64,000 bases of DNA, taken from assembly GCA_963842395.1 (NCBI GenBank), contig CAWJGJ010000002.1:114978-178977 (forward strand). Direction: 5' to 3'. The notes below the pieces were generated by a model. It worked only from the letters and a program-made list of their open reading frames with translations, was not told the DNA's origin and searched no databases. Source of the stretch: an uncultured Acidimicrobiales bacterium. GTDB lineage: Bacteria > Actinomycetota > Acidimicrobiia > Acidimicrobiales > VFJN01. Position numbers and translations under genes: made by a program. This document shows, piece by piece, positions 2,729-41,713 of the stretch; positions within the stretch are counted from its first letter, which is position 1; every line of letters starts with the position of its first letter.

Positions 2729-3874
2729 ATGACGACCATCGACGGCAAGGTGGAGGCCGGCTGGGGCGGTGTGCGGGACGAGTTCGCCGCCAACTTCGAC
2801 GAGCGGGGCGACGTGGGCGCCGCGGTCTGCGTGTACGTGGACGGCCGCAGGGTGATCGATCTGTGGGGTGGCGTCGCCGATCCCGCCTCCGGCCGCCCGT
2901 GGGCCGAGGACACGATCGTCCCCGTGTTCTCGTCGACCAAGGGCGTCACCGCGGTCGGCGCCAACCTCGCCATCGAGCGGGGCCTGCTCGACCCCGACGC
3001 CACGGTGGCGTCGTACTGGCCGGAGTTCGCCGCCGGGGGCAAGGCGGCGATCACCGTGCGCCAGGTCCTCAGCCACCAGGCCGGGCTGCCCCTGGTCGAG
3101 GGTGACGTCACGCTGGAGGAGGCGCTGGCGTGGGAGCCGATGGTCGCGGCGCTGGCGTCGCAGGCACCGCTGTGGGAACCGGGGACGCAGCACGGCTACC
3201 ACATGCGCACCTACGGCTGGCTGGCCGGCGAGCTGCTGCGCCGCACCACCGGCCGGACGCCGGGCACGTTCCTGCGGGAGGAGGTCACCGCGCCGCTCGG
3301 CGTCGACTTCTGGGTCGGCCTACCCGACGCGGAGGAGCCCCGCGTCGCCATGCTGGTGCCGCCCGCCGACAGCCTCAAGGACGCCTTGGCACCGCTCGGC
3401 GACTCGCTGCTGTTGGCGCGCGTGTTCTCCAACCCCGGCGGCCACTTCGACTACGACGAGATGTGGAACACCCGCGAGCTGCACGCTTGCGAGCTGCCGT
3501 CGTCGAACGGGATCGGCGACGCCCGGGGCCTGGCGCGGCTGTACGCGTCCTGCATCGGCGACGGGGTCGACGGCCGTCGCACGCTGCAACCGGAAACCGT
3601 GGCGGCGGCGACCACGGAGCAGGTACGGGGGCCGGACGCGGTGATCAGGGTCGAGACGTGTTTCGGACTCGGGTTCATGCTCGGCGCCAGCTTCGGCGCC
3701 GCCAACCCGACGACCTGCTTCGGCCACGCGGGCGCCGGGGGCTCGCTGGCGTTCGCCGACCCGGCGTCGGGCCTGGCGTTCGGCTACGTGACCAACGACC
3801 TCCGCTTCGACCCCGCCGGCGACCCCCGCTCCGAGGCCCTCGTCCGCGCCGCCCGCACCGCGCTGGAGGGTTGA
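2729..3874 (+). CDS. Serine hydrolase, beta-lactamase/esterase (class C-like) family
   Basis: SxxK motif in VFSSTKGVTA plus LSHQAGLP. In-frame ATG at 2729. The upstream part of ORF 2432..3874 is Arg-rich noise. Confidence 0.9.
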   Translation: MTTIDGKVEAGWGGVRDEFAANFDERGDVGAAVCVYVDGRRVIDLWGGVADPASGRPWAEDTIVPVFSSTKGVTAVGANLAIERGLLDPDATVASYWPEFAAGGKAAITVRQVLSHQAGLPLVEGDVTLEEALAWEPMVAALASQAPLWEPGTQHGYHMRTYGWLAGELLRRTTGRTPGTFLREEVTAPLGVDFWVGLPDAEEPRVAMLVPPADSLKDALAPLGDSLLLARVFSNPGGHFDYDEMWNTRELHACELPSSNGIGDARGLARLYASCIGDGVDGRRTLQPETVAAATTEQVRGPDAVIRVETCFGLGFMLGASFGAANPTTCFGHAGAGGSLAFADPASGLAFGYVTNDLRFDPAGDPRSEALVRAARTALEG

Positions 3875-3893
3875 GCAGGCCGCCCCCCGCCCC

Positions 3894-5477
3894 CTACGGA
3901 ACCGGCTGCCAGCGGGGCCCGCCACCGATCGACTCGTCCGTCACCACGCAAGCGGACGCGGACCCGTCCGGTGCGGCGACGTAGAGGCTGCCCTTGCGCA
4001 GGAACGCGAGCCAGCGGCCGTCTGACGACATCTCGGGATACGCGTCGCTGGGGCCGTCGGTGAGCTGCCGCTCGTCCTCACCGTCGACGCCAACCGCGAA
4101 GATCGAGCCGTCGCGGACGAAGAGCACCTCCCGGCCGTCGGGTGTGAACGAGGGCGCGTACTCGTAGGCCGGGGTGCCGACCAGCGTCCGCAGGTCACCA
4201 CCGTCACTCCCGACCACGACGACGTCCTGGTTCCCGTCGCCGTCGGCGGTGACGAACACGACCGACTCGCCGTCCGGAGACCAGCGGGGGTCGGTGTCGA
4301 GCCCGGGCGTCGCCACCAGAGCGCGGGCACCCGATCCGCCCGGCCCGACGACCCAGATGTCGCTGTGGTCGCCGTCGCCGTGCTGGACGAACACGATCTG
4401 GCCGTCCGCTCCCCAGTCGGGGTGTGTCACGTCCCTCAACCCCGGGAGCGGCGTCGGCACGCCGCTGGTGGCGTCGACGAGCGCGAGCGTGCGGGGCTCG
4501 TCGACCGTGGTCGAGGCCGAGTAGACGATCTGGCGTCCGTCGGGCGACCACCCCGCACCACCGGTGAGGCCGAACGAGGTGACCACCGTTGCAACCTGGT
4601 GCGCACCGGAGACCAGCTCCACCCGGGTCGTGCCGCCACCCGGCGAAGAGCCGGTGACCAGGACCGGCCGCTCGAGCCGCAAGCCGGTGTCATCGCCCTC
4701 GCACGGCGGCCGGTACTCGCCCTCCTCGGAGACCGTCGCCGGGTTGTCCGCCAGGGTCGGCGGGGGCGCACCGACCGCGACCTGTTCGGCGGCGAAGGTC
4801 AGCTCGAACTCGATCGTCCCCTCCTCGGCGATGTTGAACCCGGCCCGGCTGTCGACGTCGATGCCGTAGTCGCCGCGCTGGATCCGGGTCGACCCGGCCG
4901 CCTGGATCGTCGGGCCGTTCCACCGGGCCCGGACGTCGAAGACGACGTCGTGGGTCTCGTCGCGCAGCGTCAGCTCCGCCGGCACGGCCAGCTCCACCAC
5001 GTCGTGCGGTCGGCCTGGGTCGAACGCCGCGATCTCGACCGGCTCCGCAAGGCGCAGCCGGCCGGTCGGGAACTCGTCGACGTCGAGGGCCTCGCCGCGG
5101 ACGAAGTCGTCCCGCCGCGAGGAGTTGCTCGTCAGAGACGCGAGGTCGACCGTCACGTCGAGCGCTGCCAGCGTCCCGGCCCGGAGGGTCGCCGTGCCGT
5201 CGACCCCACCGGTCCGCGCCACCGCGTCGCTGGGCGCGGCGATCGGCCCGAGCCGCTCCCGGACCCGGTAGCCGACGAAGTTCGTCGCTACGTCCGCCAC
5301 GACCCACGTGCCGTCGGCAGTGGCCGGACCGCCGCCGCCGCCTTCGGGCGGGTCACCCAGCGCGGCGGGCCCGGGTGCGTCGCGGTTGCCGAGAGCGACG
5401 AAGCCGTACACCCCCACCGGCACCGCGACCACGACGGCTCCGAGCCCCGCGAGCAGCAGGATCGTTCGGCGACGCAC
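3894..5477 (-). CDS. Membrane-anchored fusion protein: YceI-like domain + TolB-like (PD40/WD40-like) beta-propeller
   Basis: N-terminal TM/signal anchor (RRRTILLLAGLGAVVVAVPVGVYGF). YceI-like segment (LASLTSNSSRRDDFVRGEALDVDEFPTG ... IQRGDYGIDV). Then at least 5 PD40-type repeats (WSPDGRQIVYSA, HPDWGADGQIVFV, DPRWSPDGESVVFV, APSFTPDGREVLFV, YPEMSSDGRWLAFL). Confidence 0.8.
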   Translation of the reverse strand: MRRRTILLLAGLGAVVVAVPVGVYGFVALGNRDAPGPAALGDPPEGGGGGPATADGTWVVADVATNFVGYRVRERLGPIAAPSDAVARTGGVDGTATLRAGTLAALDVTVDLASLTSNSSRRDDFVRGEALDVDEFPTGRLRLAEPVEIAAFDPGRPHDVVELAVPAELTLRDETHDVVFDVRARWNGPTIQAAGSTRIQRGDYGIDVDSRAGFNIAEEGTIEFELTFAAEQVAVGAPPPTLADNPATVSEEGEYRPPCEGDDTGLRLERPVLVTGSSPGGGTTRVELVSGAHQVATVVTSFGLTGGAGWSPDGRQIVYSASTTVDEPRTLALVDATSGVPTPLPGLRDVTHPDWGADGQIVFVQHGDGDHSDIWVVGPGGSGARALVATPGLDTDPRWSPDGESVVFVTADGDGNQDVVVVGSDGGDLRTLVGTPAYEYAPSFTPDGREVLFVRDGSIFAVGVDGEDERQLTDGPSDAYPEMSSDGRWLAFLRKGSLYVAAPDGSASACVVTDESIGGGPRWQPVP

Positions 5478-5625
5478 GCCCCCTCCTACCCCGGGCCGAC
5501 ACTGCCGGTTCCCGCGAGACCACCCGCCGCGCCCACGCCCACAGATGCCGGCCCTGCCCCACGTGACCGACGCAGATTTCCACGCGGTATCGCCGGACGC
5601 GCAGCGATGGTGGGGCGCCCGGTGC

Positions 5626-6456
5626 TCAGGACGTGACCGGGTGCAGGAGCATCTCCTGCGCCATCGAGGCCACGATGAGACCCTGCCGGTTCCGGATCAC
5701 ACCGCGCAGCGTGCCGCGGCCGCCGGCGTTGACGAGGCTCTGCACGTCCTGGAGGTGCCAGTCGTCGGCGCGGGCGGGCCGGTGGAACCAGGCGCTGTGG
5801 TCGAGGCTGATCATGCCGGTGACGTCGCCCTCGAGGTGGAGGGGCCGGCCGCCCACGCCGGTCCAATCGGTGGCGTACCCGAGCAGGGCGGTGTGCAGGT
5901 GCGGCTCGTCGTCGAGCGGTCGGGGCAGGCGGAACCAGTGGCGGTGCGTCGCCTCACGGGTGCCGTCGGGTCGCATGGCGCTGGGCCCGACCCATCGCTC
6001 GTCCCACGGGCCGACCCCGTACTCAGGGAGGTCGGGCTCGGGGAGGTCCTCGGGCAGGGGCACGTCGTCGGGGATCCCCGACAGGTCGTAGACGTACCCG
6101 TCGGTGTCGGCGGTGAACGAGCAGGTCATCGTGATGACCGGTTTGCCGTCCTGCGATGCGGTGACGTGGTGCAGGTTGAACGCGCGTCCGGCCCTCACCA
6201 CATCGCTGCGGAACACGATCTCCTGCCCGCCCAGCACGGGCCGGAGGAAGTGGGCGTGTACCGAGTGGAGACGGCTTCCCACCGGGGCATCACCGCAGGC
6301 CGCACTGATCGTGATGGCGAGCCCGACGCCGCCGAACACGACCGGCCCGTACCAGTCGGGTGTCCGTCCCACCCACGTGTCTCCCCGCCGCTCGTGCCGC
6401 AGCAACGCGAGGAACTCGTCGATCGCCGCCTGCTGCTGGTCGACCCGGTCGGTCAC
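5626..6456 (-). CDS. Acyl-CoA thioesterase II (TesB-like, double hotdog)
   Basis: Typical TesB-like sequence (PDWYGPVVFGGVGLAITISAA, HSVHAHFLRPV, VRAGRAFNLHHVTASQDGKPV). GTG at 6456-6454 lies 1 nt after the TGA (6460-6458) of the upstream hydratase gene. Confidence 0.85.
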   Translation of the reverse strand: MTDRVDQQQAAIDEFLALLRHERRGDTWVGRTPDWYGPVVFGGVGLAITISAACGDAPVGSRLHSVHAHFLRPVLGGQEIVFRSDVVRAGRAFNLHHVTASQDGKPVITMTCSFTADTDGYVYDLSGIPDDVPLPEDLPEPDLPEYGVGPWDERWVGPSAMRPDGTREATHRHWFRLPRPLDDEPHLHTALLGYATDWTGVGGRPLHLEGDVTGMISLDHSAWFHRPARADDWHLQDVQSLVNAGGRGTLRGVIRNRQGLIVASMAQEMLLHPVTS

Positions 6457-6457
6457 C

Positions 6458-7258
6458 TCAACGCCCGCGGAACTCGGGCGCCCGCTTCTCGATGATCGCC
6501 TGCACCGCCTCCTGCCCGTCCTCGCTGTCGAGGCCGGCCAGCGCGCTGCGGATCTCATCGGTCATGCGGGCGTCGACGTCGCTGATCAACGGCGTTCTGG
6601 CGACGAGATGCTTCGTGCGCCGAACGGCGAGCGGTGCCTGGGCGGCGACCATTCCGCAGAACTCCAGGAGCCGCCGGTCGAGCTGATCGGCCGGAACCAC
6701 CTCCGACACGAGGCCGAGGCGGAGCGCCTCGTCGGCATCCACGAAGCGGGATTCGAGCAGGAAGCGCAGCGCGATCTCGTGACCGACGAGGGTCGGCAGC
6801 GACCATGTGAGTCCCCCGTCGGGCGACGTGCCCGCTCGCAGGTATCCCGGGTGCAGGCGGGCCGAGTCGGCCGCGATCCGGATGTCGGCGGCCATCGCCA
6901 GCGACAGACCCGCACCCACGGCCGCCCCGTTGATCCCGGCGACGACCGGCTTGTCGGTCTCGAACCGCAGCGCGAGCAGGAACCGTCCGACCCAGCTCTT
7001 CTCGTCGAGCATCTGCTCCTGGTCCGTCAGCCCGGTCTCGACCGGCGTGTCGTCACCACCACCCAGGTCGAGGCCGGAACAGAACGCGTCGCCGTTGCCG
7101 GTCAACGCGATGACCCGGACGTCGTCGTCCGCGTGGGCGTCTCCGACGGCCCGCACGATGCTCCAGCCGAGCGACGAGGTGAGCGCGTTCTTCCGCTGGG
7201 GACGGTCGAGCCTCAACACCCTCACGTGCCCGACGGTCTCGGCGGCCAGCTGCGACAT
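6458..7258 (-). CDS. Enoyl-CoA hydratase/isomerase (crotonase) family
   Basis: MSQLAAETVGHVRVLRLDRPQRKNAL ... VIALTGNGDAFCSGLDLGG ... KPVVAGINGAAVGAGLSLAMAADIRIA. ATG at 7258-7256. Confidence 0.85.
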   Translation of the reverse strand: MSQLAAETVGHVRVLRLDRPQRKNALTSSLGWSIVRAVGDAHADDDVRVIALTGNGDAFCSGLDLGGGDDTPVETGLTDQEQMLDEKSWVGRFLLALRFETDKPVVAGINGAAVGAGLSLAMAADIRIAADSARLHPGYLRAGTSPDGGLTWSLPTLVGHEIALRFLLESRFVDADEALRLGLVSEVVPADQLDRRLLEFCGMVAAQAPLAVRRTKHLVARTPLISDVDARMTDEIRSALAGLDSEDGQEAVQAIIEKRAPEFRGR

Positions 7259-26257: not shown

Positions 26258-27181
26258 ATGTACCTGTTCACACGCTCTGGACGCTTCGCGACCGGGTCCA
26301 CCCGCGAGGTGGTCTCGTATGTCGGTGAGGTGACCGAAAAGGTCCGCCAGGAGACCGGACTGAGCGTCGACGCCTGGTCGTCGACGTTCTCGCCGGACCT
26401 CGGCACGGTCGTCTGGGCGGTCTTCGCCGAGGATCTCACCGTTCTGGAGCAGGCCAACGACAAGCTTGCGACGTCGGACAGCTTCATCGACCTGATCGAT
26501 CGGGGCGCTCAGCTCTTCGCTGGGCCGGTGTCGGACGGCCTGGCGCAGGTCATGTCCGGTGAGATCGATCCCGCGGCCCCGACCCCGCAGTACGTCTCCG
26601 TCGCCCGGGCGGTCGCGGCCAACGGGCAGCTCCGGGCCGCGCTCGCCGGCGGCGTGGAGATCGCAGAGGCGTCGACGCGGATCACCGGCGTGCCGACCAT
26701 GTTCCTCGTCGACGCCACCGGCCCGTACGGCGGCTGCGCGTGGACGAGCGGCTTCGCCGACGTCGGCGCCCTTCAGCAGGCCGAGGCGACCCTGGCCGCG
26801 GACGCCGGGTGGCTGGACCTGATCGACCGGGTCGGGCCCGCCTACCAGTCGGGAGCGTCGCAGGCGATCTACCGCCACGCCAGAGCTCGAGCGTCGAGCC
26901 GACGGGCGTCGTCAGGAGGTCGACGAGAGCGGTGCGCTCGGCGCTCGGGCGCTTGCGGTCGGCCGCGACGGCGGCGGCGAGGTGCCATCCCCTGGCGTCG
27001 GTGGCCGACGGGTCGGCGCCTGCGTCGAGCAGCAACCGGGCGATCGCGACACGATCGGCCCGGGCACCGGAGCGCAACAGGTGCCACAACGGCGTCAGGC
27101 CCCCGTCGTCCGGCGCGTTCGGATCCGCACCCGCGGCCAGCAACGCGGTTGTCGCGCCCACGAAGCCGGCCTTGGCCGTGA
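26258..27181 (+). CDS. Hypothetical protein with an internally duplicated ~100-aa domain. The last ~100 codons are an Arg-rich tail antisense to the ankyrin gene.
   Basis: GAGGAGGG RBS before ATG 26258. The two halves align (YLFTRSGRF...GLSVDAW...LAQVM versus YVSVARAVA...GVPTMFL...SQAIYR). Coding-like signal ends near 26880, but the first in-frame stop is at 27179-27181. Confidence 0.6.
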   Translation: MYLFTRSGRFATGSTREVVSYVGEVTEKVRQETGLSVDAWSSTFSPDLGTVVWAVFAEDLTVLEQANDKLATSDSFIDLIDRGAQLFAGPVSDGLAQVMSGEIDPAAPTPQYVSVARAVAANGQLRAALAGGVEIAEASTRITGVPTMFLVDATGPYGGCAWTSGFADVGALQQAEATLAADAGWLDLIDRVGPAYQSGASQAIYRHARARASSRRASSGGRRERCARRSGACGRPRRRRRGAIPWRRWPTGRRLRRAATGRSRHDRPGHRSATGATTASGPRRPARSDPHPRPATRLSRPRSRPWP

Positions 27182-28448
27182 AGTGCAACGCCGTCTTGCC
27201 GAAGGCACGGGCGTGGACGTCGGCGCCCGCGTCGACCAGCGCGGTCACGAAGGCCGGGTCGTCCTTGTTGCCGTTGTTGCCCGTGCACGACCGCCAGATC
27301 CATGACTCCCAGCGCGTGGGCGCGTGGTTGACGTCCGCACCGGCGGCGCGCAGCAGGCCGGCGCACTCCCGGTCGAGGATCCACCGGCCGGGGGTGACGA
27401 AGCGAGCATCGGCGCCGATCTCGAGCAGTGTCCGGACGGCCGAGGCGCGTCCCGCGTCCGCGGCGTGCCGGAGCAGGCGGTGCCCGTGGGCGGGACAGCG
27501 GGCACCGAGCTCGGCCAGCACCGTCAGCGTGTCGTCGGGGGCGGCACCCTGGACCGCATGGTCGACCACGGTCGCCCGGTAGAAGTCCGAGGCCGGATCC
27601 GGCTCGTTGGCGAGCGCAGGGTCCGCCACGATCGCGTCGCGGAGCTCGTCCCCGTGACCGAGGAAGGCGGCGGTGAACACGTCATCCACGGCACCGGCGT
27701 CGAGCAGCAGCGCCGCCGCCTGGTGCCTGCGATGCGCCCTGGCCCCGCACAAGGGGGTGAGCATGAGGGTGCCGTGCCCGACGCGTCCCGGCTTGTCGAC
27801 GTCGGCGCCGCGCTCGATGAGCACCCGCAACACGGGCACCCGGCCCCTGCTCGCCGCGGCGTACACCAGCTCGGCCGACCCCGGATCGCGGGGCTCGACG
27901 AGCTGCGGCCGCTCGTCGAGCAGGCGGACGAGCGCCTCGCTGTCCCCCCGCTCGCACAGGGCCACCGCCTCGCGCGTCGGTCGATAGCGCTGCTCACGCA
28001 GCGCACCACGCTCGGCCGGCGCCTCCTCGTTCACGAACGCCTCGGCGATGGGGCGCAATGCCTCCACCACGCGGGCCGCGACGGCCTCGCCCGCGACCTC
28101 GGCCAACGCCCGCCGCGCGTGACCCAGCCAGCGACCCGCATCGGCGGCGGTGATGTGGATGAAGCGGTGCGAGCCCGCCAGGTCGTGATAGGCGAACTGC
28201 GTGTTCCACTCGGGCGGGCCCCCGAAGATCTCGATCAGGAACGCGCCCAACTTGCGGCGCTCGGCTTCGAGGTCGCTCCCGAACTTCGGGCGCAGCGTGC
28301 GATCACCCTCGATGCCGTCGTAGAGGCGCTCCACCACCGCCCGGATCGCATCGGCGCCACCGATGCCACGGATGTCGGCGCCGTCGACGCCCGTCCGGGT
28401 CGCTGGCACGGCGCCGACGGCGCGATGGGCGAGGAGTGGGTGGGTCAT
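26682..28448 (-). CDS. Truncated-hemoglobin (bacterial globin) domain fused to ankyrin repeats. The last ~65 codons are an Arg-rich tail.
   Basis: N-terminus IGGADAIRAVVERLYDGIEGDRTLRPKF ... FLIEIFGGPPEW ... SHRFIHITAADAGRW is trHb-like. At least 5 ankyrin-like units follow (LIERGADVDKPG, LLLDAGAVDD, LLEIGADARF, LVDAGADVHARAFGKTALHFTAKAG, LLAAGADPNAPDDGGLTPLW, LLLDAGADPSATD). ATG 28448. Coding signal ends near 26885, stop at 26682. Confidence 0.75.
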   Translation of the reverse strand: MTHPLLAHRAVGAVPATRTGVDGADIRGIGGADAIRAVVERLYDGIEGDRTLRPKFGSDLEAERRKLGAFLIEIFGGPPEWNTQFAYHDLAGSHRFIHITAADAGRWLGHARRALAEVAGEAVAARVVEALRPIAEAFVNEEAPAERGALREQRYRPTREAVALCERGDSEALVRLLDERPQLVEPRDPGSAELVYAAASRGRVPVLRVLIERGADVDKPGRVGHGTLMLTPLCGARAHRRHQAAALLLDAGAVDDVFTAAFLGHGDELRDAIVADPALANEPDPASDFYRATVVDHAVQGAAPDDTLTVLAELGARCPAHGHRLLRHAADAGRASAVRTLLEIGADARFVTPGRWILDRECAGLLRAAGADVNHAPTRWESWIWRSCTGNNGNKDDPAFVTALVDAGADVHARAFGKTALHFTAKAGFVGATTALLAAGADPNAPDDGGLTPLWHLLRSGARADRVAIARLLLDAGADPSATDARGWHLAAAVAADRKRPSAERTALVDLLTTPVGSTLELWRGGRSPATLPTGRRARPGRSGPATRRPRPGSPRPAEGRRRRRSRSSTRSRRTGRWRRRGTWSARR

Positions 28449-28691
28449 CGAGGCGGGGCCGTACGCGGCAGGAGTCCATCGAGCGGAGCATCCCTGGTGG
28501 CGACCGTCCGAACGGCGCCTGCCAGGTGGTCTCTGGCGTAGTCGAGGCTCATCGGGTGGACAGCCTCGCACCCCCGACCGTCCGGCGCAGCGAGCGACAC
28601 GCGAGGACAGCCACGGTGTCGACCTGATGGCGCGGCGGTCCGGCCTCGTACGCTCGGGCGAGGGCGGGCGTGTCGACGAGGAGGTCGTGTC

Positions 28692-29609
28692 ATGCCGAGG
28701 GCCGTCCGGTTCGAGCGCTACGGCGATGTCGATGTGCTGCAGGTGGTCGACGTGCCCCGTCCCGTGCCGGAGGACGGCCAGGTGGTGGTGCGGGTCGAGG
28801 CGGCCGGCATCAACCCCGGGGAAGCGGCGATCCGCCGTGGCCTGCTGCACGAGAGGTGGCCGGCCACGTTCCCCTCGGGGCAGGGCAGCGACCTGGCCGG
28901 GGTCGTCGACGAGCTCGGCCCCGGGGTGGAGGGGGTGGCGGTCGGCGACGAGGTGATCGGCTTCACGCACGACCGGGCCAGCCACGCCGAGGTGGTCGTC
29001 GTCGACGTCGACCACCTGACTCCGCGCCCCGCCGGAGTGCCGTGGGAGATCGCCGGCGCGCTCTTCGTCGCCGGTGCCACGGCCCACGCCGCGGTGCACG
29101 CCGTGGCCGCAGCCGAGGGGGACACGGTCGTCGTCTCCGGCGCCGCCGGCGGCGTCGGGACGATCGCCGGGCAGCTGGCGGGCCACGGCGGCGCCACGGT
29201 GCTCGGGCTCGCCAGCCCGCCCCACCACGGCTGGCTGCGCGATCACGGCATCGTGCCGGTGGCATACGGCGACGGCGTGGAGCAACGCATCCGGGACGCC
29301 GCAGGGGCGGTGGACGCGTTCATCGACACGTTCGGCGGCGGCTACGTCGACATGGCCGTCTCCCTGGGCGTCGCCCCCGACCGCATCGACACGATCGCCG
29401 ACTTCGCCGCCGCGCAGCGCCACGGCGCCAAGACCGACGGCAACATGGCCGGCGCCCGCGCCGAGGTCATGGCCGAGCTGGCCGGCCTGATCGCGTCCGG
29501 CCGCCTCGAGGTACCGATCGCTCGCACCTATCCCCTCGCCGAGGTCCGCGCCGCCTACCGCGAGCTGGAGCAGCGCCACACCCTCGGCAAGATCGTCCTC
29601 ATCCCCTGA
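28692..29609 (+). CDS. NADP-dependent quinone oxidoreductase (MDR)
   Basis: MPRAVRFERYGDVDVLQVVDVPRP ... VVVSGAAGGVGTIAGQLA ... GKIVLIP. Confidence 0.9.
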   Translation: MPRAVRFERYGDVDVLQVVDVPRPVPEDGQVVVRVEAAGINPGEAAIRRGLLHERWPATFPSGQGSDLAGVVDELGPGVEGVAVGDEVIGFTHDRASHAEVVVVDVDHLTPRPAGVPWEIAGALFVAGATAHAAVHAVAAAEGDTVVVSGAAGGVGTIAGQLAGHGGATVLGLASPPHHGWLRDHGIVPVAYGDGVEQRIRDAAGAVDAFIDTFGGGYVDMAVSLGVAPDRIDTIADFAAAQRHGAKTDGNMAGARAEVMAELAGLIASGRLEVPIARTYPLAEVRAAYRELEQRHTLGKIVLIP

Positions 29610-29670
29610 CGTCCGACCCTCGCCGGCGCCGCGCGTGCGCCATCATCCAGCGTCCGCCGCGACCGTGGGG

Positions 29671-30622: not shown

Positions 30623-31543
30623 CTACGAGGTGCGGTGGCGGACCCACCAGTAGCAGGCGAACGCGAGGGCGACGCCGAGGCAGCAGAAGATGACCGACTC
30701 CCACACCTGCAGCGTCCAGAACTGACTGCCCGGGTGGGCCTTGACCACCTCGTGGAGGCCGAGCTGGTCGGCGCACTGCATGTAGCTCGCCTCGGAGCTC
30801 GTGCGCGTCAGGTTGCACGCTTCTGTCAGCACCCGGTCGGCTGCGCCGCCGGGGAGCACATGGCCGGATCCGTCGACCGTCGAGCTCGACATCACCCAGG
30901 CGCCCGTGGTCGAGGCGTGCTCGTCGGGCGGGCCGAACAGGGTCAGGGGGCGCGTAAGCGTGACGGTGTCGACGAGCCGCGGCCTCACCACCCACTGGAA
31001 CGTGAACCGGGCCACGAAGAACCCGACGAGGGTCACGGCCATGGCGGGCAACGTCCGGCGGACGATCGCGCCGACCAGCGCGCCGAGGGCGAGGGCGAAC
31101 AGCGCGTAGGCGACGGGGGCGATGCCGCGCTGCCCGAAGTTCGCGGTGCCGATCCGGTTGCCGTGCGCGTCGAGGGGCAGCGACCACCACGTGAACAGCG
31201 CGGCGAACACCGCGGTCACCACGACCGTCGCGGCAGCGAGCACGACGAGCTTCGTCCCGAGCCACCGGCCGCGCGTGACCCCCTGTGTCCACGCGAGCCG
31301 GTGGGTCCCGAGCTCCAGCTCGCGGGCGAGCAGCGGCGCGCCCCAGAAAGCACCGATCGCAGCGGGCACCCCGATGAGCACCGTGCCCAGAAGCTGCAGC
31401 GACGAGTAGACCGTCGAGAGGTTCTCCTCGGGCGTGGATGCGATGTGATCCCGGGTGGCGACGAGGACGACGGCCACTGCCGCCACCGCCCCGACGGCGA
31501 ACAGGGCCTGGGCTCTGGCCTGTCGCCAGGCGAGCCACGTCAT
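30623..31543 (-). CDS. ABC-2-type transporter permease
   Basis: Six hydrophobic segments. 4-nt overlap with the upstream ABC ATPase gene. Typical third gene of YtrA-type operons. Confidence 0.8.
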   Translation of the reverse strand: MTWLAWRQARAQALFAVGAVAAVAVVLVATRDHIASTPEENLSTVYSSLQLLGTVLIGVPAAIGAFWGAPLLARELELGTHRLAWTQGVTRGRWLGTKLVVLAAATVVVTAVFAALFTWWSLPLDAHGNRIGTANFGQRGIAPVAYALFALALGALVGAIVRRTLPAMAVTLVGFFVARFTFQWVVRPRLVDTVTLTRPLTLFGPPDEHASTTGAWVMSSSTVDGSGHVLPGGAADRVLTEACNLTRTSSEASYMQCADQLGLHEVVKAHPGSQFWTLQVWESVIFCCLGVALAFACYWWVRHRTS

Positions 31544-36760: not shown

Positions 36761-37785
36761 TCAGCGCTCGGCGCGCTCCACCACATCGACCTCATGGTGA
36801 TCGGCCCGGCGTGGCACACCCGGGGTGGCACGCCGCACCGCCTGCTGCCACGTGGCCGCCGACCGGCCCCGGTAGTAGGCCGGGGTCAGGCCTGACGACG
36901 GTGCGGTCAGCCGCTCGGGCCGCATGACGTAGAGGTCGCCGGCCCGCACCTCGACCAGCCGATCGAGCACGGCGTCGAGGTCGTCGTGCACCGACAGGTG
37001 GCGGCCGGACAGGGCATCGCCGTCGCCGGCCGCCAGCCGCAGGATCAGCTCGACGGCCTCGCCCGGCTCGGCGCCGCGGCCCTCCGCCAGCTCGCGCAGC
37101 GCCCAGTCCCGGACGTGCGCCTCGTAGGCGTCGACCGGCGGCCGGTGCCGCGAAGTCCTCGGACATGCCGATGGGCAGCAGCCCGGGGTGCACGCTGAAG
37201 ACCCGGACGCCGTGCCGGCCGACCTCGTGGGCGAGGTTCTCGGTCAGCTTCACCACCGCGGCCTTGGACACCGAGTAGGCGGACACCAGCGGCCAGCGGT
37301 AGGTGCCGGCCTGGCTCGCCATGTTGATGATCCGGCCGCGGCCGCGGGCCACCATCTCGGGTACCACCAGCTGGGTGGTGAGCAGGAGGCCCCGCAGGTT
37401 CACGTCCATGGTCGTCCACCAGTCCTGCGGGTCGGTCATCCACATCGGCCCGATGGGGCCGACGATGCCGGCGTTGTTGACCAGGAGATCGACGGGGCCG
37501 AGCCGCCGGCGCAGCTCCGCCAGGGCGCCGGCCAGCGCGTCGCGGTCGGTGACGTCGGCGGGGACCGCGGCCGCGGTGCCGCCGGCGCGGCCGACCAGCT
37601 CGACCGTGCCGGCCAGCTCGTCGGGCGACCGGGCCACGAGGCCGACGGCCATGCCCCGGCCGGCCAGGGCCTGCGGCCAGCAGGCGGCCGATGCCGCGGC
37701 CGCCGCCGGTGATCAGGGCCACCGGTCGCTGCGGACCGGTGACGGTGGTGGCAAGGGTGACGGGGAGCGGGGTGGAAGGGAACAT
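36761..37785 (-). pseudogene. SDR-family oxidoreductase interrupted by two frameshifts
   Basis: N-terminus VALITGGGRGIG (frame of ORF 37045..37896), core NNAG ... YSVSKAAV (ORF 36792..37652), C-terminus PPVDAYEAHVRDWALRELAE ... DDLDAVLDRLVEVRAGDLYVMRPERL (ORF 36761..36991 frame). Shifts near 37667-37669 (G3 run) and 37131-37146. Confidence 0.8.
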
Positions 37786-37834
37786 GCGCCCAGGGTGCGA
37801 CCGCGGGCCCGCCGCAGTCCTGAGCAGCCGTTGC

Positions 37835-40617
37835 TCAATCGCCGGCCGTCTGCCGGCGGGCAGCCGGCGATTGCTCAGCCTCCCCCGCCGGGCCATCGAT
37901 GCCGAGGGCCCCGGCCAGCTGGCGGCGGCCGCTGACGCCCAGCTTGGAGTAGGCGCTCTGCAGGTGGTTGTTCACCGTGCGGACCGACAGGTACAGGCGG
38001 TCGGCGATCTCCTTGCTCGACTCGCCCTGGGCGGCCAGCGCCGGCGATGTCCCGCTCCCGGTGGGTGAGCGGCACGACGACGACCGGCGCGGCCAGGCCC
38101 GGCGTGCGGGCCCCCTCGCAACCACGCCGCCAGGGTCGTGGCCCGCACGCCGAGGGCGGCGGCCCGTCGCCGGTGGCCCTGGCGGCGCAGCGCCTGGGCG
38201 GCCTCGGTGGCCGCCTCGGCCGCCAGCAGCAGCGCCCCCAGCGCCTCGAACCGGTCGGTGGCGGCCACGAGGCCCTCGGCGTCACCGGCGGCGGCCGCCG
38301 CGGCGTGGGCGGCATACGCGCCGACCAGGTCGCCCTCGCACCGCTCGGCCAGACCCGGCCAGGCGAGCGGCCACCGCCGCCGGCTCGCCGAGGCGGGCCA
38401 CGTCGTGGAGCATCCACGCCTCGCACACCCGGTAGCCGTCGGCCGCAGCGCGGTCGGCCGCAGCCAGCAGCACCTGGCGGGCGCCGGGCAGGTCGCCGGC
38501 GGCCACCTTGGCCCAGGCCCGGCCCAGCTCCTGCTCGGGCCGGGTGAAGGGGAACTCCGGCAGCCGGTCGAGCTCGCGCACCGCGGCCTGGGCCGCCTCG
38601 CTGTCGCCCGACGCCCGGCCGCGGCGGCGGCCAGGGCGGACAGCACCAGGCACCGGGGACCGTCGATGCCGTGGGCCTCGGCCCGGGCCGCGGCCTCGCC
38701 CAGCCAGCGCTGGGCGGTCGCCAGCTGCCCGGCCAGCAGCGCGCACGCGGCCGATCTGGTGGGCCAGCCACATGCGGGCGTCGGGCGGCGCGGTCGCCGG
38801 CGTGGCCTCGTAGGCCGCGGTGGCCAGCGCACGGGCCTCGGCCAGCCGCCCGCACTCGGCCAGCGCGTAGGCCCGGATGAGGATGTGGTTGCCGGGGCCG
38901 GGGATGGCGATCTGGTCGGGCAGCTCGGACTGGTCGACGAACGCCTGCGCCAGGCCCTCGGCGGCCGGTGGCGCACCGGCCCGGTCGCCACCAGGGCCGG
39001 CAGCTCGGCCAGCGCCCGCAGCGCCCGGGCCCGGGGGTCGGGATCGTCGGGCACCGGCCTCAGCACCTCGAGGGCGTCGCGCGGCCGGCCGGAGTAGGTG
39101 AGCAGCAGCGCCTCGTTGAGCGTCGAGCTCCCGGACGCCCGGCCGGGTCGGCGACCCGCTGCGCGGGTCTCGTCGTTGACGGCCAGGGCCTCGTCGTGGC
39201 GGCAGCAGGCCCCACATCAGGTTCCGGGTGCGGATCTCGGTGATGTAGACGAGCAGCGCCTCGTCGTCGGGGTCGGTGCACGCCTCGTGCGCGGCGTGGA
39301 GGACGTCCGCGGCCTCGGCGAACCGGCCCAGCTCGTGGAGCGCCTCGCCCAGCAGCAGCCCGGCCTCCGGCGTGATGCCGTCGGCCACCGCGGCCCGGGC
39401 CAGCCGCTCGACCTGCGGGAAGTCCTGGCCGTAGCGGGCCAGGCGGGCGGCCCGGACCAGCAGGGCGGGGTCGGCCGCGCCGGACGGCGTCGAGCCGGGC
39501 GGTGGCGACCCGGATGGCGTCCTCCCGGCGGCGGGCGCCGTAGCCGTCGATGCGGTCGGCGTGCTCCAGCAGGAGGCGGCGGCGGGTCAGGGCCGGGCAT
39601 GCGATCCCGGAGGATCTCGCCGTAGAGCGGGTGGGCGAGCCGCACCTCCTGGCGGCGGCCGTCGGTCCGCACCGTGAGCAGGCCGTGGCGGTCGAGCAGC
39701 TCCAGCTGGGCGGCACCGACGATGGCCTCGAGCGTGGCGAGGCCGGCCGGCTCCCACACCGCCAGCATGTCGAGCGCCGCGACCGTCGCCGGCGGCAGGC
39801 GGCCGAGGCGGGCGGCGATCAGCTCCCGCAGCCGGGGCGTGGTGACCAGCGGCCCGACCAGGCGCCACACGCCCCGCTGCTCGACCAGGTGGCCGCGGTC
39901 GAGGGCGCCGAGCACCAGCTCGCGGACGAGCAGGACGTTGCCCTGGCTGGCCGTCCAGATCTCGGCCACGCTGGCTCGCCTCGACCGGTCCGCGCAGCAC
40001 CAGGTGCGAGCAGCGTGCCGACCGCGGCCCGGTCCAGGTCCTCCAGGTCGACCCGCCGCACCCGGGCCCGGTGCCACAGCGCCTCGACGCCCGCCGGCAG
40101 CGGGGCTCGTCCGATCGCACGGTGGCCACCAGGAAGACGAGGTCGGCATCGACGAGCTGGGACACGAGCGTGGCCGAGGTGGCGTCGAGCAGGTGGAGGT
40201 CGTCGACGAACAGGACCAGCGGGCCTGCCGGCGTCTGGTCCTCGGAGCACCGGGCGCAGCTCGGCCACCACCGCCACCAGGTCGCACCGCTCGTCGCCGA
40301 TGCCCGGCGGCAGCAGGTGGGCCAGCGCGCCGAGCGGCGCCGACTGCGGACCCCTCGGTGGCCGTGGCCCGGGCCACGTTGCGGCCGTGCTGGTCGGCGA
40401 GGGCCAGGCACTGGTCGGCCAGGCGGGTCTTGCCCACGCCCGGGCGGCGCCGTGGATGACGAAGCCGTGGGCCCGGGGGTCGCCGAGGCCGGCGACGAAC
40501 AGGTCGAGCTCGTCGTGGCGGCCGACGAGGGGCCACTGGAGCGGGCGGCGGGCTCGCGGCGGGGGCGGAGCGTGCCCTGGCCATCGGTGCCACGGTACCG
40601 GCCGCCGCGCTGCTCAT
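37835..40617 (-). pseudogene. LuxR-family regulator with N-terminal AAA/STAND-like ATPase (LAL type), fragmented by many frameshifts
   Basis: Recognisable pieces are scattered over all three minus frames. They include Walker A (HGA-PGVGKTRLADQ, with a shift inside it), Walker B (LVLFVDDLHLLD), a winged-helix part (QGNVLLVRELVLGALDRG...LAHPLYGEILRDRMP), TPR-like helices, and the C-terminal HTH (LTHRERDIA / LAAQGESSKEIADRLYLSVRTVNNHLQSAYSKLGV). I count at least 12 frame switches. Confidence 0.8.
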
Positions 40618-40782
40618 GCCGGGGCGACCAAAAGTTCGGCAACCGCGACCCGGGTCCTCGAGTCCCACATCGGGTCCCCCCGGGTACCCGGCCTGGCCCG
40701 ACGCCGTACGCTGAGGTGGTGACGGCGGGGCGCGATCTGTGGGCCACCGCCGAGCGGGCGATCAGGCACTGAAGGGACGGAC

Positions 40783-41713
40783 GTGGAGTTCGGCGCGCAC
40801 CTGCCCCTGATGGACTTCGGTGGGCACCCGTTCACCCTCGACCACCTGACCGGCTACGCCCGGCGGGCCGCCGAGCTCGGGTTCGCCACGCTGGCCGCCA
40901 ACGATCATCTGGCCTTCGCGGTCCCGTGGTTGGACGGCCCCACGGCCCTCGCCGCGGTGGTCGGCTCGTCGGGCTCCATGACGCTGGCCACGACGGTGGC
41001 ACTGCCGGTCGTGCGGGGACCGGTGGCGCTGGCCAAGGCGGTGGCTGCCATCGACCGGCTGTCCGGCGGCCGGGTGGTGGTGGGTGTGGGGCCGGGATCG
41101 TCGCCGCTCGACCACGCCGCGGTCGGCCTCGACTTCGACGAGCGCTGGCGGCGCCTCGACGAGGCGGTGCGGGCGCTGCGGGCGCTCTGGCAACCGGACG
41201 GCGAGCCGTTCGTCGGCCGGTTCTACTCCACCGCCGGCATCGAGCTGCGGCCCGGGACCAGCCCGGCCGTCGGGCCCCCCGATCTGGATCGGCAGCTGGG
41301 GCTCCGACGCCGGGCTCCGCCGCACCGCCCGCCTGGCCGACGGGTGGCTGGCCTCGGCCTACAACACGACGCCGGCGACGTTCGCCCGCGCCTGGACGGC
41401 GTTGCGGGGGCTCCTCGCCGATGAGGGCAAGGACGCCGCCACGTTCCCCAACGCGCTGGCGACGATGTGGTTCCACATCACCGACGATCCGGTGGAGGCC
41501 GACCGGGTCATGCGGGACCGGGTCGTCCCGGCGGTTCACCGGCCGGAGGCGGTGCTCCGGGAGCGACTGCCGGTGGGGCCCGCCGGCGCGTTCGCCGAGA
41601 AGCTGCACGCATTCCGCGAGGCCGGGGTGCAGCAGGTGCTCGTGTGGCCGGTCGCCGACGAGGCCCGCCAGCTCGAGCTCTTCCGCGACCGGGTCGTCCC
41701 TCTGCTCGGCTAG
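40783..41713 (+). pseudogene. LLM-class F420-dependent oxidoreductase with one frameshift
   Basis: N-terminal half in the frame of ORF 40783..41424 (up to ...STAGIELRP). C-terminal half in the frame of ORF 41084..41713 (GPPIWIGSWGSDAGLRRTARLADGW...). Shift between about 41245 and 41280 (C6 run 41275-41280). Confidence 0.8.

What the first reader, a model, noticed from the sequence alone, without database searches (positions are those of the whole stretch)
37835..40617. LuxR/LAL-type ATPase regulator shattered into a dozen or more frame segments
All the parts of a ~930-aa large ATP-binding LuxR regulator are present in the right order: Walker A, Walker B, winged helix, TPR-like helices and the LuxR HTH. 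They hop between the three minus-strand frames at least 12 times, which is about one indel per 200 bp. Several junctions sit in short C or G runs; for example HGA|PGVGKT needs one extra C near 40440. I saw no in-frame stops inside the recognisable segments and little obvious amino-acid decay. That is odd for an old pseudogene and equally odd for random sequencing error, given the intact neighbours further away.
Basis: seen in the sequence. Interest (0 to 1): 0.55.

Follow-up and report, generated by a model that had tools for sequence, protein, structure and literature searches.

The report
Regulator gene broken by assembly errors
A large LuxR-type regulator gene looks shattered by 23 extra single bases, but the pattern of those bases indicates an error of long-read metagenome assembly, not a decaying gene.

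Summary
The minus-strand gene at 37835-40617 encodes a 919-aa LAL-type regulator (AAA_16 ATPase, TPR-like helices, GerE/LuxR HTH). It is broken by 23 frame hops, not about 12.

Every break is a surplus single base in the window. This holds against four short-read (Illumina-style) metagenome contigs from two related lineages, all with an intact gene. There are no coding deletions.

Removing the 23 bases gives a stop-free protein 92% identical to the nearest ortholog, with dN/dS 0.23.

The breaks are not specific to this gene. Two more lie in the SDR gene downstream, and four isolated frame hops lie elsewhere in the window.

The decisive result concerns the reading frame. Of the 25 coding insertions, 22 can be read as a synonymous alternative allele of the adjacent third codon position (chance expectation 10-15, P ≤ 2e-4). 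Neither random read noise nor real insertion mutations should track the frame this way.

My best explanation is that two co-occurring sequence variants were collapsed into one long-read consensus, and both alleles were written at wobble SNP sites.

The window's proteins sit on a 1.59-Mb NCBI/ENA contig. Related Nanopore-only assemblies show mostly +1 hops in the same gene.

Verdict: an assembly artefact of low interest. Checking the raw reads would settle it.

The parts
37835..40617 (-). LAL-type (large ATP-binding LuxR family) regulator gene. It would be 919 codons plus a stop once 23 surplus single bases are removed.
   Evidence: Three-frame translation. Intact 928-aa ORF in L001:3394-6180. 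Corrected protein is stop-free and 92% identical, with dN/dS 0.23. Pfam AAA_16 and GerE.
40426..40454 (-). Walker A / P-loop (HGAPGVGKT), interrupted by two surplus C's at 40447 and 40438.
   Evidence: Alignments. Coordinates were mapped from L001 by hand and are approximate to a few bases.
40184..40219 (-). Walker B region (LVLFVDDLHLLD).
   Evidence: AAA_16 match covers residues 18-145 of the corrected protein. Coordinates were mapped from L001 and are approximate.
37913..38072 (-). C-terminal GerE/LuxR helix-turn-helix, split by a surplus C at 38044.
   Evidence: Pfam PF00196, E=2e-15, residues 831-883 of the corrected protein. Insertion column.
38044..40542 (-). The 23 surplus single bases inside the regulator gene, in + strand coordinates: 40542, 40447, 40438, 40347, 40245, 40109, 40108, 40007, 39976, 39592, 39487, 39203, 39160, 39142, 39124, 38984, 38966, 38743, 38610, 38609, 38358, 38124, 38044.
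   Evidence: Five-way MAFFT alignment with L001, L035, L037 and L039. Every one of these columns is filled only in the window. A pairwise blastn gives the same sites within 1-2 bases.
36761..37785 (-). Short-chain dehydrogenase/reductase gene downstream of the regulator. It is the other half of the conserved two-gene module and carries 2 surplus bases (37674, 37146).
   Evidence: Corrected protein is 91% identical to L001, stop-free, with dN/dS 0.26.
36845..40656 (-). Block of nucleotide homology (the regulator + SDR module) shared with relatives. All 25 clustered insertions lie inside it, between 37146 and 40542. The flanks are not homologous to those relatives.
   Evidence: blastn of L001, L035, L037 and L039 ends at the same window coordinates. 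More distant relatives share the same module.
40783..41713 (+). Luciferase-like (LLM-class) oxidoreductase gene with one +1 frame hop, located by frame comparison to about 41270-41290, where the window has a C6 run (from 41275).
   Evidence: Pfam Bac_luciferase profile positions 20-159 lie on one frame and 161-267 on the next. C6 run listed.

Best explanation
The gene is most likely intact in the organism, and the breaks were introduced when the contig's consensus sequence was built.

The window appears to come from a long-read metagenome-assembled contig of an Ilumatobacteraceae/Acidimicrobiales bacterium. Across the conserved regulator + SDR module, reads from two closely related variants were apparently piled into one consensus. 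The variants could be strains of the same population, or a co-occurring relative that shares only this module.

At some sites where the variants differ, the consensus or polishing step wrote both alleles side by side instead of choosing one. Such sites are mostly synonymous third codon positions. Each event adds one base and shifts the frame by +1.

Shown directly:
- All breaks are single surplus bases.
- They track wobble positions.
- Selection on the gene is intact.
- Relatives from short-read (Illumina-style) assemblies are intact.

Inferred:
- That the contig is a long-read assembly.
- That two variants were present.
- That the polisher emitted both alleles.

The protein itself is an ordinary LAL-type transcriptional regulator: an N-terminal STAND-type ATPase, TPR-like helices and a C-terminal LuxR HTH. 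It probably regulates the adjacent SDR or nearby genes, which I infer only from the conserved gene pairing.
For: 1. Indel direction. Against L001 the alignment is 91.4% identical, with 297 mismatches and 30 gaps, each of 1 nt. In the five-way alignment, 25 coding columns are filled only in the window and there are no coding deletions.
2. Control pair. L001 and L039 are just as diverged from each other (91.6%) and have 0 coding indels. L001, L035 and L037 are independent assemblies of one species (99.5-99.7% identity) with 0 gaps between them.
3. No decay. The corrected LAL protein has 0 stops, 92% identity and dN/dS 0.23. The SDR gives dN/dS 0.26. The window's own branch has 78 unique substitutions, against 98 and 63 on the other two branches, and 52% of its coding changes are at position 3.
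4. Reading-frame signal. 22 of 25 insertions are readable as a synonymous alternative allele of the adjacent third codon position. The null mean is 10.5 (P<5e-5). With ±1 nt context preserved P<5e-5, and with ±2 nt preserved P=2e-4. None is confined to the junction between codon positions 1 and 2 (P=0.016). Ten sit unambiguously just after position 3 (P=0.001).
5. Allele spectrum. The implied allele pairs are 68% C/G. Real wobble differences among the lineages are 58-68% C/G.
6. Not gene-specific. Breaks also occur in the SDR, the LLM, a cyclase, a dienelactone hydrolase (DLH) and an α/β-hydrolase gene.
7. Source. The window's intact proteins are held by NCBI and ENA on a 1,591,189-bp contig. 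In the same 90% cluster, ABC-permease copies from long ENA contigs are 69-252-aa fragments, while most JGI, Logan and NCBI-MAG (Logan) copies are the full 306 aa.
8. Assembly type. The LAL gene is single-frame in every isolate and short-read-style (k141, NODE, Ga-named) locus. It hops frames in 7 of 11 MFD/ERZ long-read loci, about 15 times by +1 and 3 times by -1. MFD MAGs are Nanopore-only, assembled with Flye and one Medaka round (PMC12313526).
9. Precedent. Collapsing alleles introduced INDEL errors and apparent frameshifts in a long-read assembly (PMC8445201). R10.4.1 assemblies of a high-GC actinobacterium had more insertions than deletions.
Against: - No reads or coverage data are available, so neither the second variant nor the polisher's behaviour was observed.
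- I could not retrieve the record name or the sequencing technology of the window's own contig.
- The nearest intact references are 92% identical lineages, not the same strain. A real lineage-specific pseudogene is therefore not formally excluded.
- The window's terminal branch has a somewhat lower share of third-position changes than the other branches (52% against 65-66%). That could mean slight relaxation of selection, or extra consensus substitution errors.
- Why the errors cluster in this 3.4 kb is not shown. One of the isolated hops is a -1.
Confidence: 0.68

Rival explanations
1. This is still an artefact, but of a simpler kind. Uncorrected long-read insertion errors were left in a stretch that was hard to call or thinly covered, for example the sustained 77-81% GC stretch. 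No second variant was involved.
For: The cluster lies in the most GC-rich 3 kb of the window. The contig has a background of isolated frame hops, one of them at a C6 run. R10.4.1 assemblies of a high-GC actinobacterium had more insertions than deletions. Related Nanopore loci show clusters of mostly +1 hops (heuristic only).
Against: Random or context-driven read error should not track the reading frame, yet 22 of 25 insertions mimic synonymous wobble alleles even under context-preserving nulls. Other 500-nt bins at 79-81% GC in the window have no hops. In related loci the hop clusters do not follow GC. Most insertions are not homopolymer extensions.
Confidence: 0.22
2. It is a genuine, recently inactivated pseudogene. 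The organism's DNA really carries 23 one-base insertions in the regulator and 2 in the SDR.
For: The sequence as deposited says so. No same-strain reference is available. The window's branch has a slightly lower third-position share.
Against: - 25 insertions against 0 deletions, whereas bacterial mutation is generally deletion-biased (established knowledge, not tested here).
- No nonsense mutation, and dN/dS 0.23 with no excess substitutions on the window's branch.
- After the first frameshift, selection could not keep later insertions at synonymous wobble positions.
- Breaks cross into neighbouring and distant genes.
- Equally diverged intact lineages have 0 coding indels.
Confidence: 0.05
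3. The gene is expressed through programmed recoding, meaning ribosomal frameshifting or transcriptional slippage at each junction.
For: None beyond the absence of stop codons in the used frames.
Against: It would need 23 recoding sites in one gene with no shared slippery motif. The junction contexts are heterogeneous. Orthologs encode the same protein in one frame. The same kind of break occurs in unrelated genes.
Confidence: 0.01

Closest known systems
Gene-fragmenting indel errors in long-read (Nanopore or PacBio) assemblies, including indels created when alleles or strains are collapsed into one consensus
   Same: Single-base indels split genes into pseudo-fragments. They are absent from the short-read-style assemblies of relatives and scattered over unrelated genes of the same contig. 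The problem is described in PMC12007338 (abstract) and PMC8445201. PMC8445201 states that nearby allelic variants led to INDEL errors in a collapsed assembly.
   Different: The density here is unusually high, at 25 in 3.4 kb against about 4 in the other 60 kb. The errors are insertions only, mostly not in homopolymers, and sit at synonymous wobble positions. I did not find that last signature described in the papers I read.
LAL family (large ATP-binding regulators of the LuxR family; MalT-like STAND regulators of actinobacteria)
   Same: About 920 aa. N-terminal AAA_16 P-loop ATPase with Walker A and B motifs, a central helical TPR-like region and a C-terminal GerE/LuxR HTH. Intact homologs of 880-930 aa occur in Streptomyces, Micromonospora, Mycolicibacterium and Kribbella.
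   Different: Nothing about the protein itself stands out. As deposited, the reading frame is broken. Targets and ligand are unknown. The only contextual clue is the conserved pairing with an SDR gene.
True bacterial pseudogenes, such as those of reductive genome evolution
   Same: Multiple frameshifts within a recognisable gene.
   Different: True pseudogenes accumulate deletions, nonsense mutations and non-synonymous changes. This locus has insertions only, no stops and dN/dS 0.23, and its insertions are tied to the codon frame.

Membership tests
LAL-type LuxR regulators (applied to the corrected gene product) | N-terminal P-loop NTPase (AAA_16 / STAND type) with Walker A and Walker B motifs | tested here: met
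   Pfam AAA_16 E=2.5e-11 (44.8 bits, cut-off 32.6) on residues 18-145. GAPGVGKT and LVLFVDDLH are visible in the corrected protein.
LAL-type LuxR regulators (applied to the corrected gene product) | C-terminal LuxR/GerE helix-turn-helix DNA-binding domain | tested here: met
   Pfam GerE E=2e-15 (56.6 bits, cut-off 23.5) on residues 831-883.
LAL-type LuxR regulators (applied to the corrected gene product) | Large size (about 900 aa) with a helical TPR-like middle region, colinear with family members | tested here: met
   919 codons. Single-HSP tblastn colinearity with 880-930-aa homologs in about 25 loci. The TPR_14 and TPR_16 hits are below Pfam's cut-offs, so the TPR assignment is weak.
LAL-type LuxR regulators (applied to the corrected gene product) | ATP-dependent transcriptional activation of target genes | not testable with these tools
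   No expression or binding data. The function is inferred from the domains only.
Long-read consensus artefact (collapsed-variant indels) | The frame breaks are absent from independent accurate assemblies of close relatives | tested here: met
   L001, L035, L037 and L039, which are short-read-style k141 and Ga-named metagenome contigs, are all single-frame. All 25 coding insertion columns are unique to the window.
Long-read consensus artefact (collapsed-variant indels) | The breaks are not gene-specific and occur in unrelated genes of the same contig | tested here: met
   SDR, LLM, cyclase, DLH and α/β-hydrolase genes also hop frames.
Long-read consensus artefact (collapsed-variant indels) | The underlying gene shows undisturbed purifying selection | tested here: met
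   dN/dS 0.23, no stops and no excess substitutions on the window's branch.
Long-read consensus artefact (collapsed-variant indels) | The inserted bases correspond to alternative alleles at polymorphic sites | tested here: inconclusive
   There is indirect support. 22 of 25 insertions mimic synonymous wobble alleles (P ≤ 2e-4), and the implied allele spectrum matches natural wobble differences. The second haplotype itself was not observed.
Long-read consensus artefact (collapsed-variant indels) | The contig comes from a long-read assembly, and the reads do not support the surplus bases | not testable with these tools
   Only indirect evidence is available. The contig is 1.59 Mb and held by NCBI/ENA. 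Sister Nanopore MAG loci show the same kind of hops. The record name and reads could not be obtained.
Genuine pseudogene | Relaxed selection: nonsense mutations, raised dN/dS and mixed or deletion-biased indels | tested here: not met
   0 stops, dN/dS 0.23, and 25 insertions against 0 deletions.

The most novel reading that the evidence does not exclude
The surplus bases are really in the genome. An unknown insertion-prone process would then have peppered a 3.4-kb regulator + SDR module with +1 insertions very recently, without any other decay. A milder reading keeps the artefact but takes it as a marker of real biology: two co-existing haplotypes that differ specifically over this regulator module, for instance through a recombination tract.
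Probability: 0.04. Interest if true: 0.6.

Novelty: not a real feature. Interest (0 to 1): 0.07.

Why it matters
For biology it matters little. The organism very probably has an ordinary, working LAL-type regulator.

The practical value is a warning. Long-read-only metagenome assemblies of high-GC Acidimicrobiia can contain local bursts of insertion errors. These turn intact genes into strings of fragments and fill protein databases with 70-250-aa pieces.

The wobble-position signature may be a useful read-free diagnostic for collapsed-variant consensus errors. The signature is that inserted bases look like synonymous alleles of the neighbouring third codon position. It would need validation on data with reads before anyone relied on it.

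Tried and rejected
- GC content as a sufficient cause. Other bins at 79-81% GC in the window are free of hops. In related Nanopore loci the hop clusters do not follow GC.
- A chimeric join. The homology with relatives ends at the same coordinates (36845 and 40656) in four contigs. More distant relatives show this is simply the edge of a conserved two-gene module with variable flanks.
- A mosaic of the L001-type and L039-type lineages. At informative sites the window matches the two in an interleaved pattern and has 78 changes of its own, so it is an independent third lineage.
- A shared sequence motif at the insertion sites, such as a methylation motif or a slippery site. Inspection of the contexts showed none.
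- Identifying the source record. Only the contig length and the holding archives came back.
- Close short-read references for the other Nanopore loci. None is above about 79% identity, so their indels could be typed only by frame direction.
- The gaps near 36904/36896 and 40625-40631 from the pairwise blastn. The first pair disappears in the multiple alignment. The second is a 2-nt difference upstream of the conserved ATG. The intergenic G at 37810 is shared with L039. I treat all three as real differences, not errors.
- The frame-plot counts of hops in other loci are heuristic and were not individually verified.

Full report
**1. What is in the sequence**

The window is high-GC DNA, 72% overall and 77-81% across 37.5-40.5 kb. 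Translating the minus strand of 37700-40800 in three frames shows colinear pieces of one large regulator that hop between frames. No minus-strand ORF spans the whole gene.

A GC3 frame-plot HMM and a test for stop codons at segment ends gave the wider picture. Frame changes without stops are packed into about 36.85-41.4 kb. Nearly every other coding segment of the 64 kb ends at a stop. I checked the genes at 30.6-36.6 kb by eye and they are intact.

**2. An intact ortholog and the nature of the breaks**

A scan of species-representative genomes found L001, a k141-named contig of an Acidimicrobiales MAG. It has an uninterrupted 928-aa ORF at 3394-6180.

blastn of L001 against the window aligns 3380-7167 to 40656-36845. 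Identity is 91.4%, with 297 mismatches and 30 gaps, every gap 1 nt long. Of these, 27 are surplus bases in the window.

A scan of JGI metagenomes added three more contigs:
- L035 and L037 belong to the same species as L001 (99.5-99.7% identity, no gaps between them).
- L039 is a third lineage, 91.6% identical to L001 and 92.6% to the window.

All four relatives read in one frame. In a five-way MAFFT alignment, 25 coding columns are filled only in the window: 23 in the regulator and 2 in the downstream SDR gene. There are no coding deletions.

Three other differences look real and not erroneous:
- An intergenic G at 37810 is shared with L039.
- A 2-nt difference at about 40625 lies upstream of the conserved ATG at 40617.
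- L001 and L039, which are equally diverged, have no coding indel between them.

**3. The gene is not decaying**

Deleting the 23 bases gives a stop-free protein 92% identical to L001. Nei-Gojobori dN/dS is 0.23 (dS 0.18). For the SDR it is 0.26. Mismatches by codon position are 38/35/132 for the regulator.

In the 2-kb stretch covered by three lineages, the window's branch carries 78 private substitutions. L001 has 98 and L039 has 63. On the window's branch 52% of coding changes are at third positions, against 65-66% on the other two. There is thus no burst of neutral change to accompany 23 frameshifts, though the window's share is somewhat lower.

Pfam on the corrected protein finds AAA_16 and GerE above their cut-offs, plus weak TPR hits.

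**4. The breaks are not gene-specific**

Besides the SDR (37674, 37146), four other genes are affected:
- The luciferase-like oxidoreductase at 40783-41713 changes frame by +1 at about 41270-41290, where there is a C6 run. Pfam profile positions 20-159 and 161-267 lie on different frames.
- A cyclase gene hops +1 at about 43770.
- A dienelactone hydrolase hops +1 at about 53070 (profile 5-73 and 92-216).
- An α/β-hydrolase hops -1 at about 56050.

The contig therefore has a background of roughly one frame error per 15 kb, plus a hot cluster of 25 in 3.4 kb.

**5. The insertions track the reading frame**

Of the 25 coding insertions, none is confined to the junction between codon positions 1 and 2 (null mean 3.8, P=0.016). 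Ten sit unambiguously just after position 3 (null mean 3.6, P=0.001).

More specifically, 22 of 25 can be read as a synonymous alternative allele of the adjacent third position, for example CCC/CCG, GCG/GCC and CTC/CTG. Random insertion gives a mean of 10.5 (P<5e-5). Nulls that keep the flanking context give means of 12.0 for ±1 nt (P<5e-5) and 15.4 for ±2 nt (P=2e-4).

The implied allele pairs are 68% C/G. Real third-position differences among the three lineages are 58-68% C/G.

Random read noise has no access to the reading frame. Real insertion mutations would not stay at synonymous sites once the frame was already lost. Synonymous polymorphisms between two co-occurring variants do sit at such positions. 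Writing both alleles next to each other adds exactly one base.

A published case reports the same class of error: nearby allelic variants led to wrong read alignments and INDEL errors, seen as apparent frameshifts, in a collapsed long-read assembly (PMC8445201).

**6. Source and sister assemblies**

Seven intact window proteins are in the protein collection. All are held by NCBI and ENA on one contig of 1,591,189 bp. A cluster mate is named Ilumatobacteraceae. A contig of that size from this kind of organism suggests a long-read assembly, but I could not obtain the record itself.

Three further observations point the same way:
- In the same 90% cluster of an ABC permease, copies on long ENA contigs are 69-252-aa fragments. 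Most JGI, Logan and NCBI-MAG (Logan) copies are the full 306 aa.
- All 20 database relatives of a 126-aa piece of the regulator are fragments of 76-207 aa.
- tblastn with the intact protein gives one HSP in every isolate and short-read-style locus. It gives frame hops in 7 of 11 MFD/ERZ loci, about 15 by +1 and 3 by -1.

MFD MAGs are Nanopore-only, assembled with Flye and polished with one Medaka round (PMC12313526). A frame-plot heuristic suggests clusters of mostly +1 hops in those loci and 0-1 per 20 kb in isolates. I did not verify those calls one by one. A preprint on R10.4.1 assemblies of a high-GC actinobacterium reports more insertions than deletions.

**7. What remains open**

Why the errors concentrate in this block is not shown. 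GC alone does not explain it.

The block coincides with a regulator + SDR module that is conserved at 78-92% identity among related soil lineages, while its flanks vary. Reads from a relative could therefore be recruited here and nowhere else. A strain-level recombination tract is an equally possible source of the second variant. Only the reads can decide between these.

**8. Verdict**

The gene identity is correct. The 'shattering' is best explained as a consensus artefact: about 0.9 for an artefact of any kind, and about 0.68 for the collapsed-variant mechanism specifically. A genuine pseudogene stands at about 0.05. Interest is low. The only transferable point is the wobble-allele signature as a possible read-free flag for this kind of assembly error.

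Noticed in passing
window 41270-41290 (gene 40783-41713, + strand): The luciferase-like oxidoreductase gene changes frame by +1 at about this position, where there is a C6 run. Pfam profile positions 20-159 and 161-267 lie on different frames. This looks like an ordinary homopolymer-length error and is separate from the cluster.
   Followed up: partly
window about 43770 (+), about 53070 (-), about 56050 (-): There are isolated frame hops in a nucleotide cyclase gene (+1), a dienelactone hydrolase gene (+1, Pfam DLH profile 5-73 and 92-216) and an α/β-hydrolase gene (-1). They indicate a background of roughly one frame error per 15 kb in this contig.
   Followed up: partly
window 37810 (intergenic, between the regulator and the SDR gene): A one-base G difference from the L001 lineage is shared with the independent L039 lineage. 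It is a real indel polymorphism and not an error.
   Followed up: yes
window 27360-28118 (-), inside the long ORF 26682-29642: There is a weak tblastn match (27% identity, E=4.5e-4) to the helical middle part of the LAL protein. It may be a second, distant TPR/LAL-like regulator. It appears single-frame in the frame plot.
   Followed up: no
L006 8.0-11.8 kb and 16.5-18.4 kb; L028 9.7-14.6 kb; L019, L034, L009, L032: Related Nanopore-derived MAG loci show clusters of putative, mostly +1, frame hops by the frame-plot heuristic. The clusters cover the LAL gene and its neighbours. Isolate genomes show 0-1 per 20 kb. This suggests a recurring assembly problem in this clade.
   Followed up: partly
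protein clusters of window genes, e.g. the ABC permease at window 30623-31543: Members of the same 90% cluster that sit on long ENA contigs are 69-252-aa fragments of a 306-aa protein, while most JGI and Logan copies are full length. Fragmented gene calls from long-read assemblies are entering protein databases.
   Followed up: no
window 36845 and 40656: Nucleotide homology to four related contigs stops at exactly these two coordinates. They are the edges of a conserved regulator + SDR module whose flanks differ between lineages. In L001, L035 and L037 an acyl-CoA synthetase lies upstream, where the window has the LLM oxidoreductase.
   Followed up: partly
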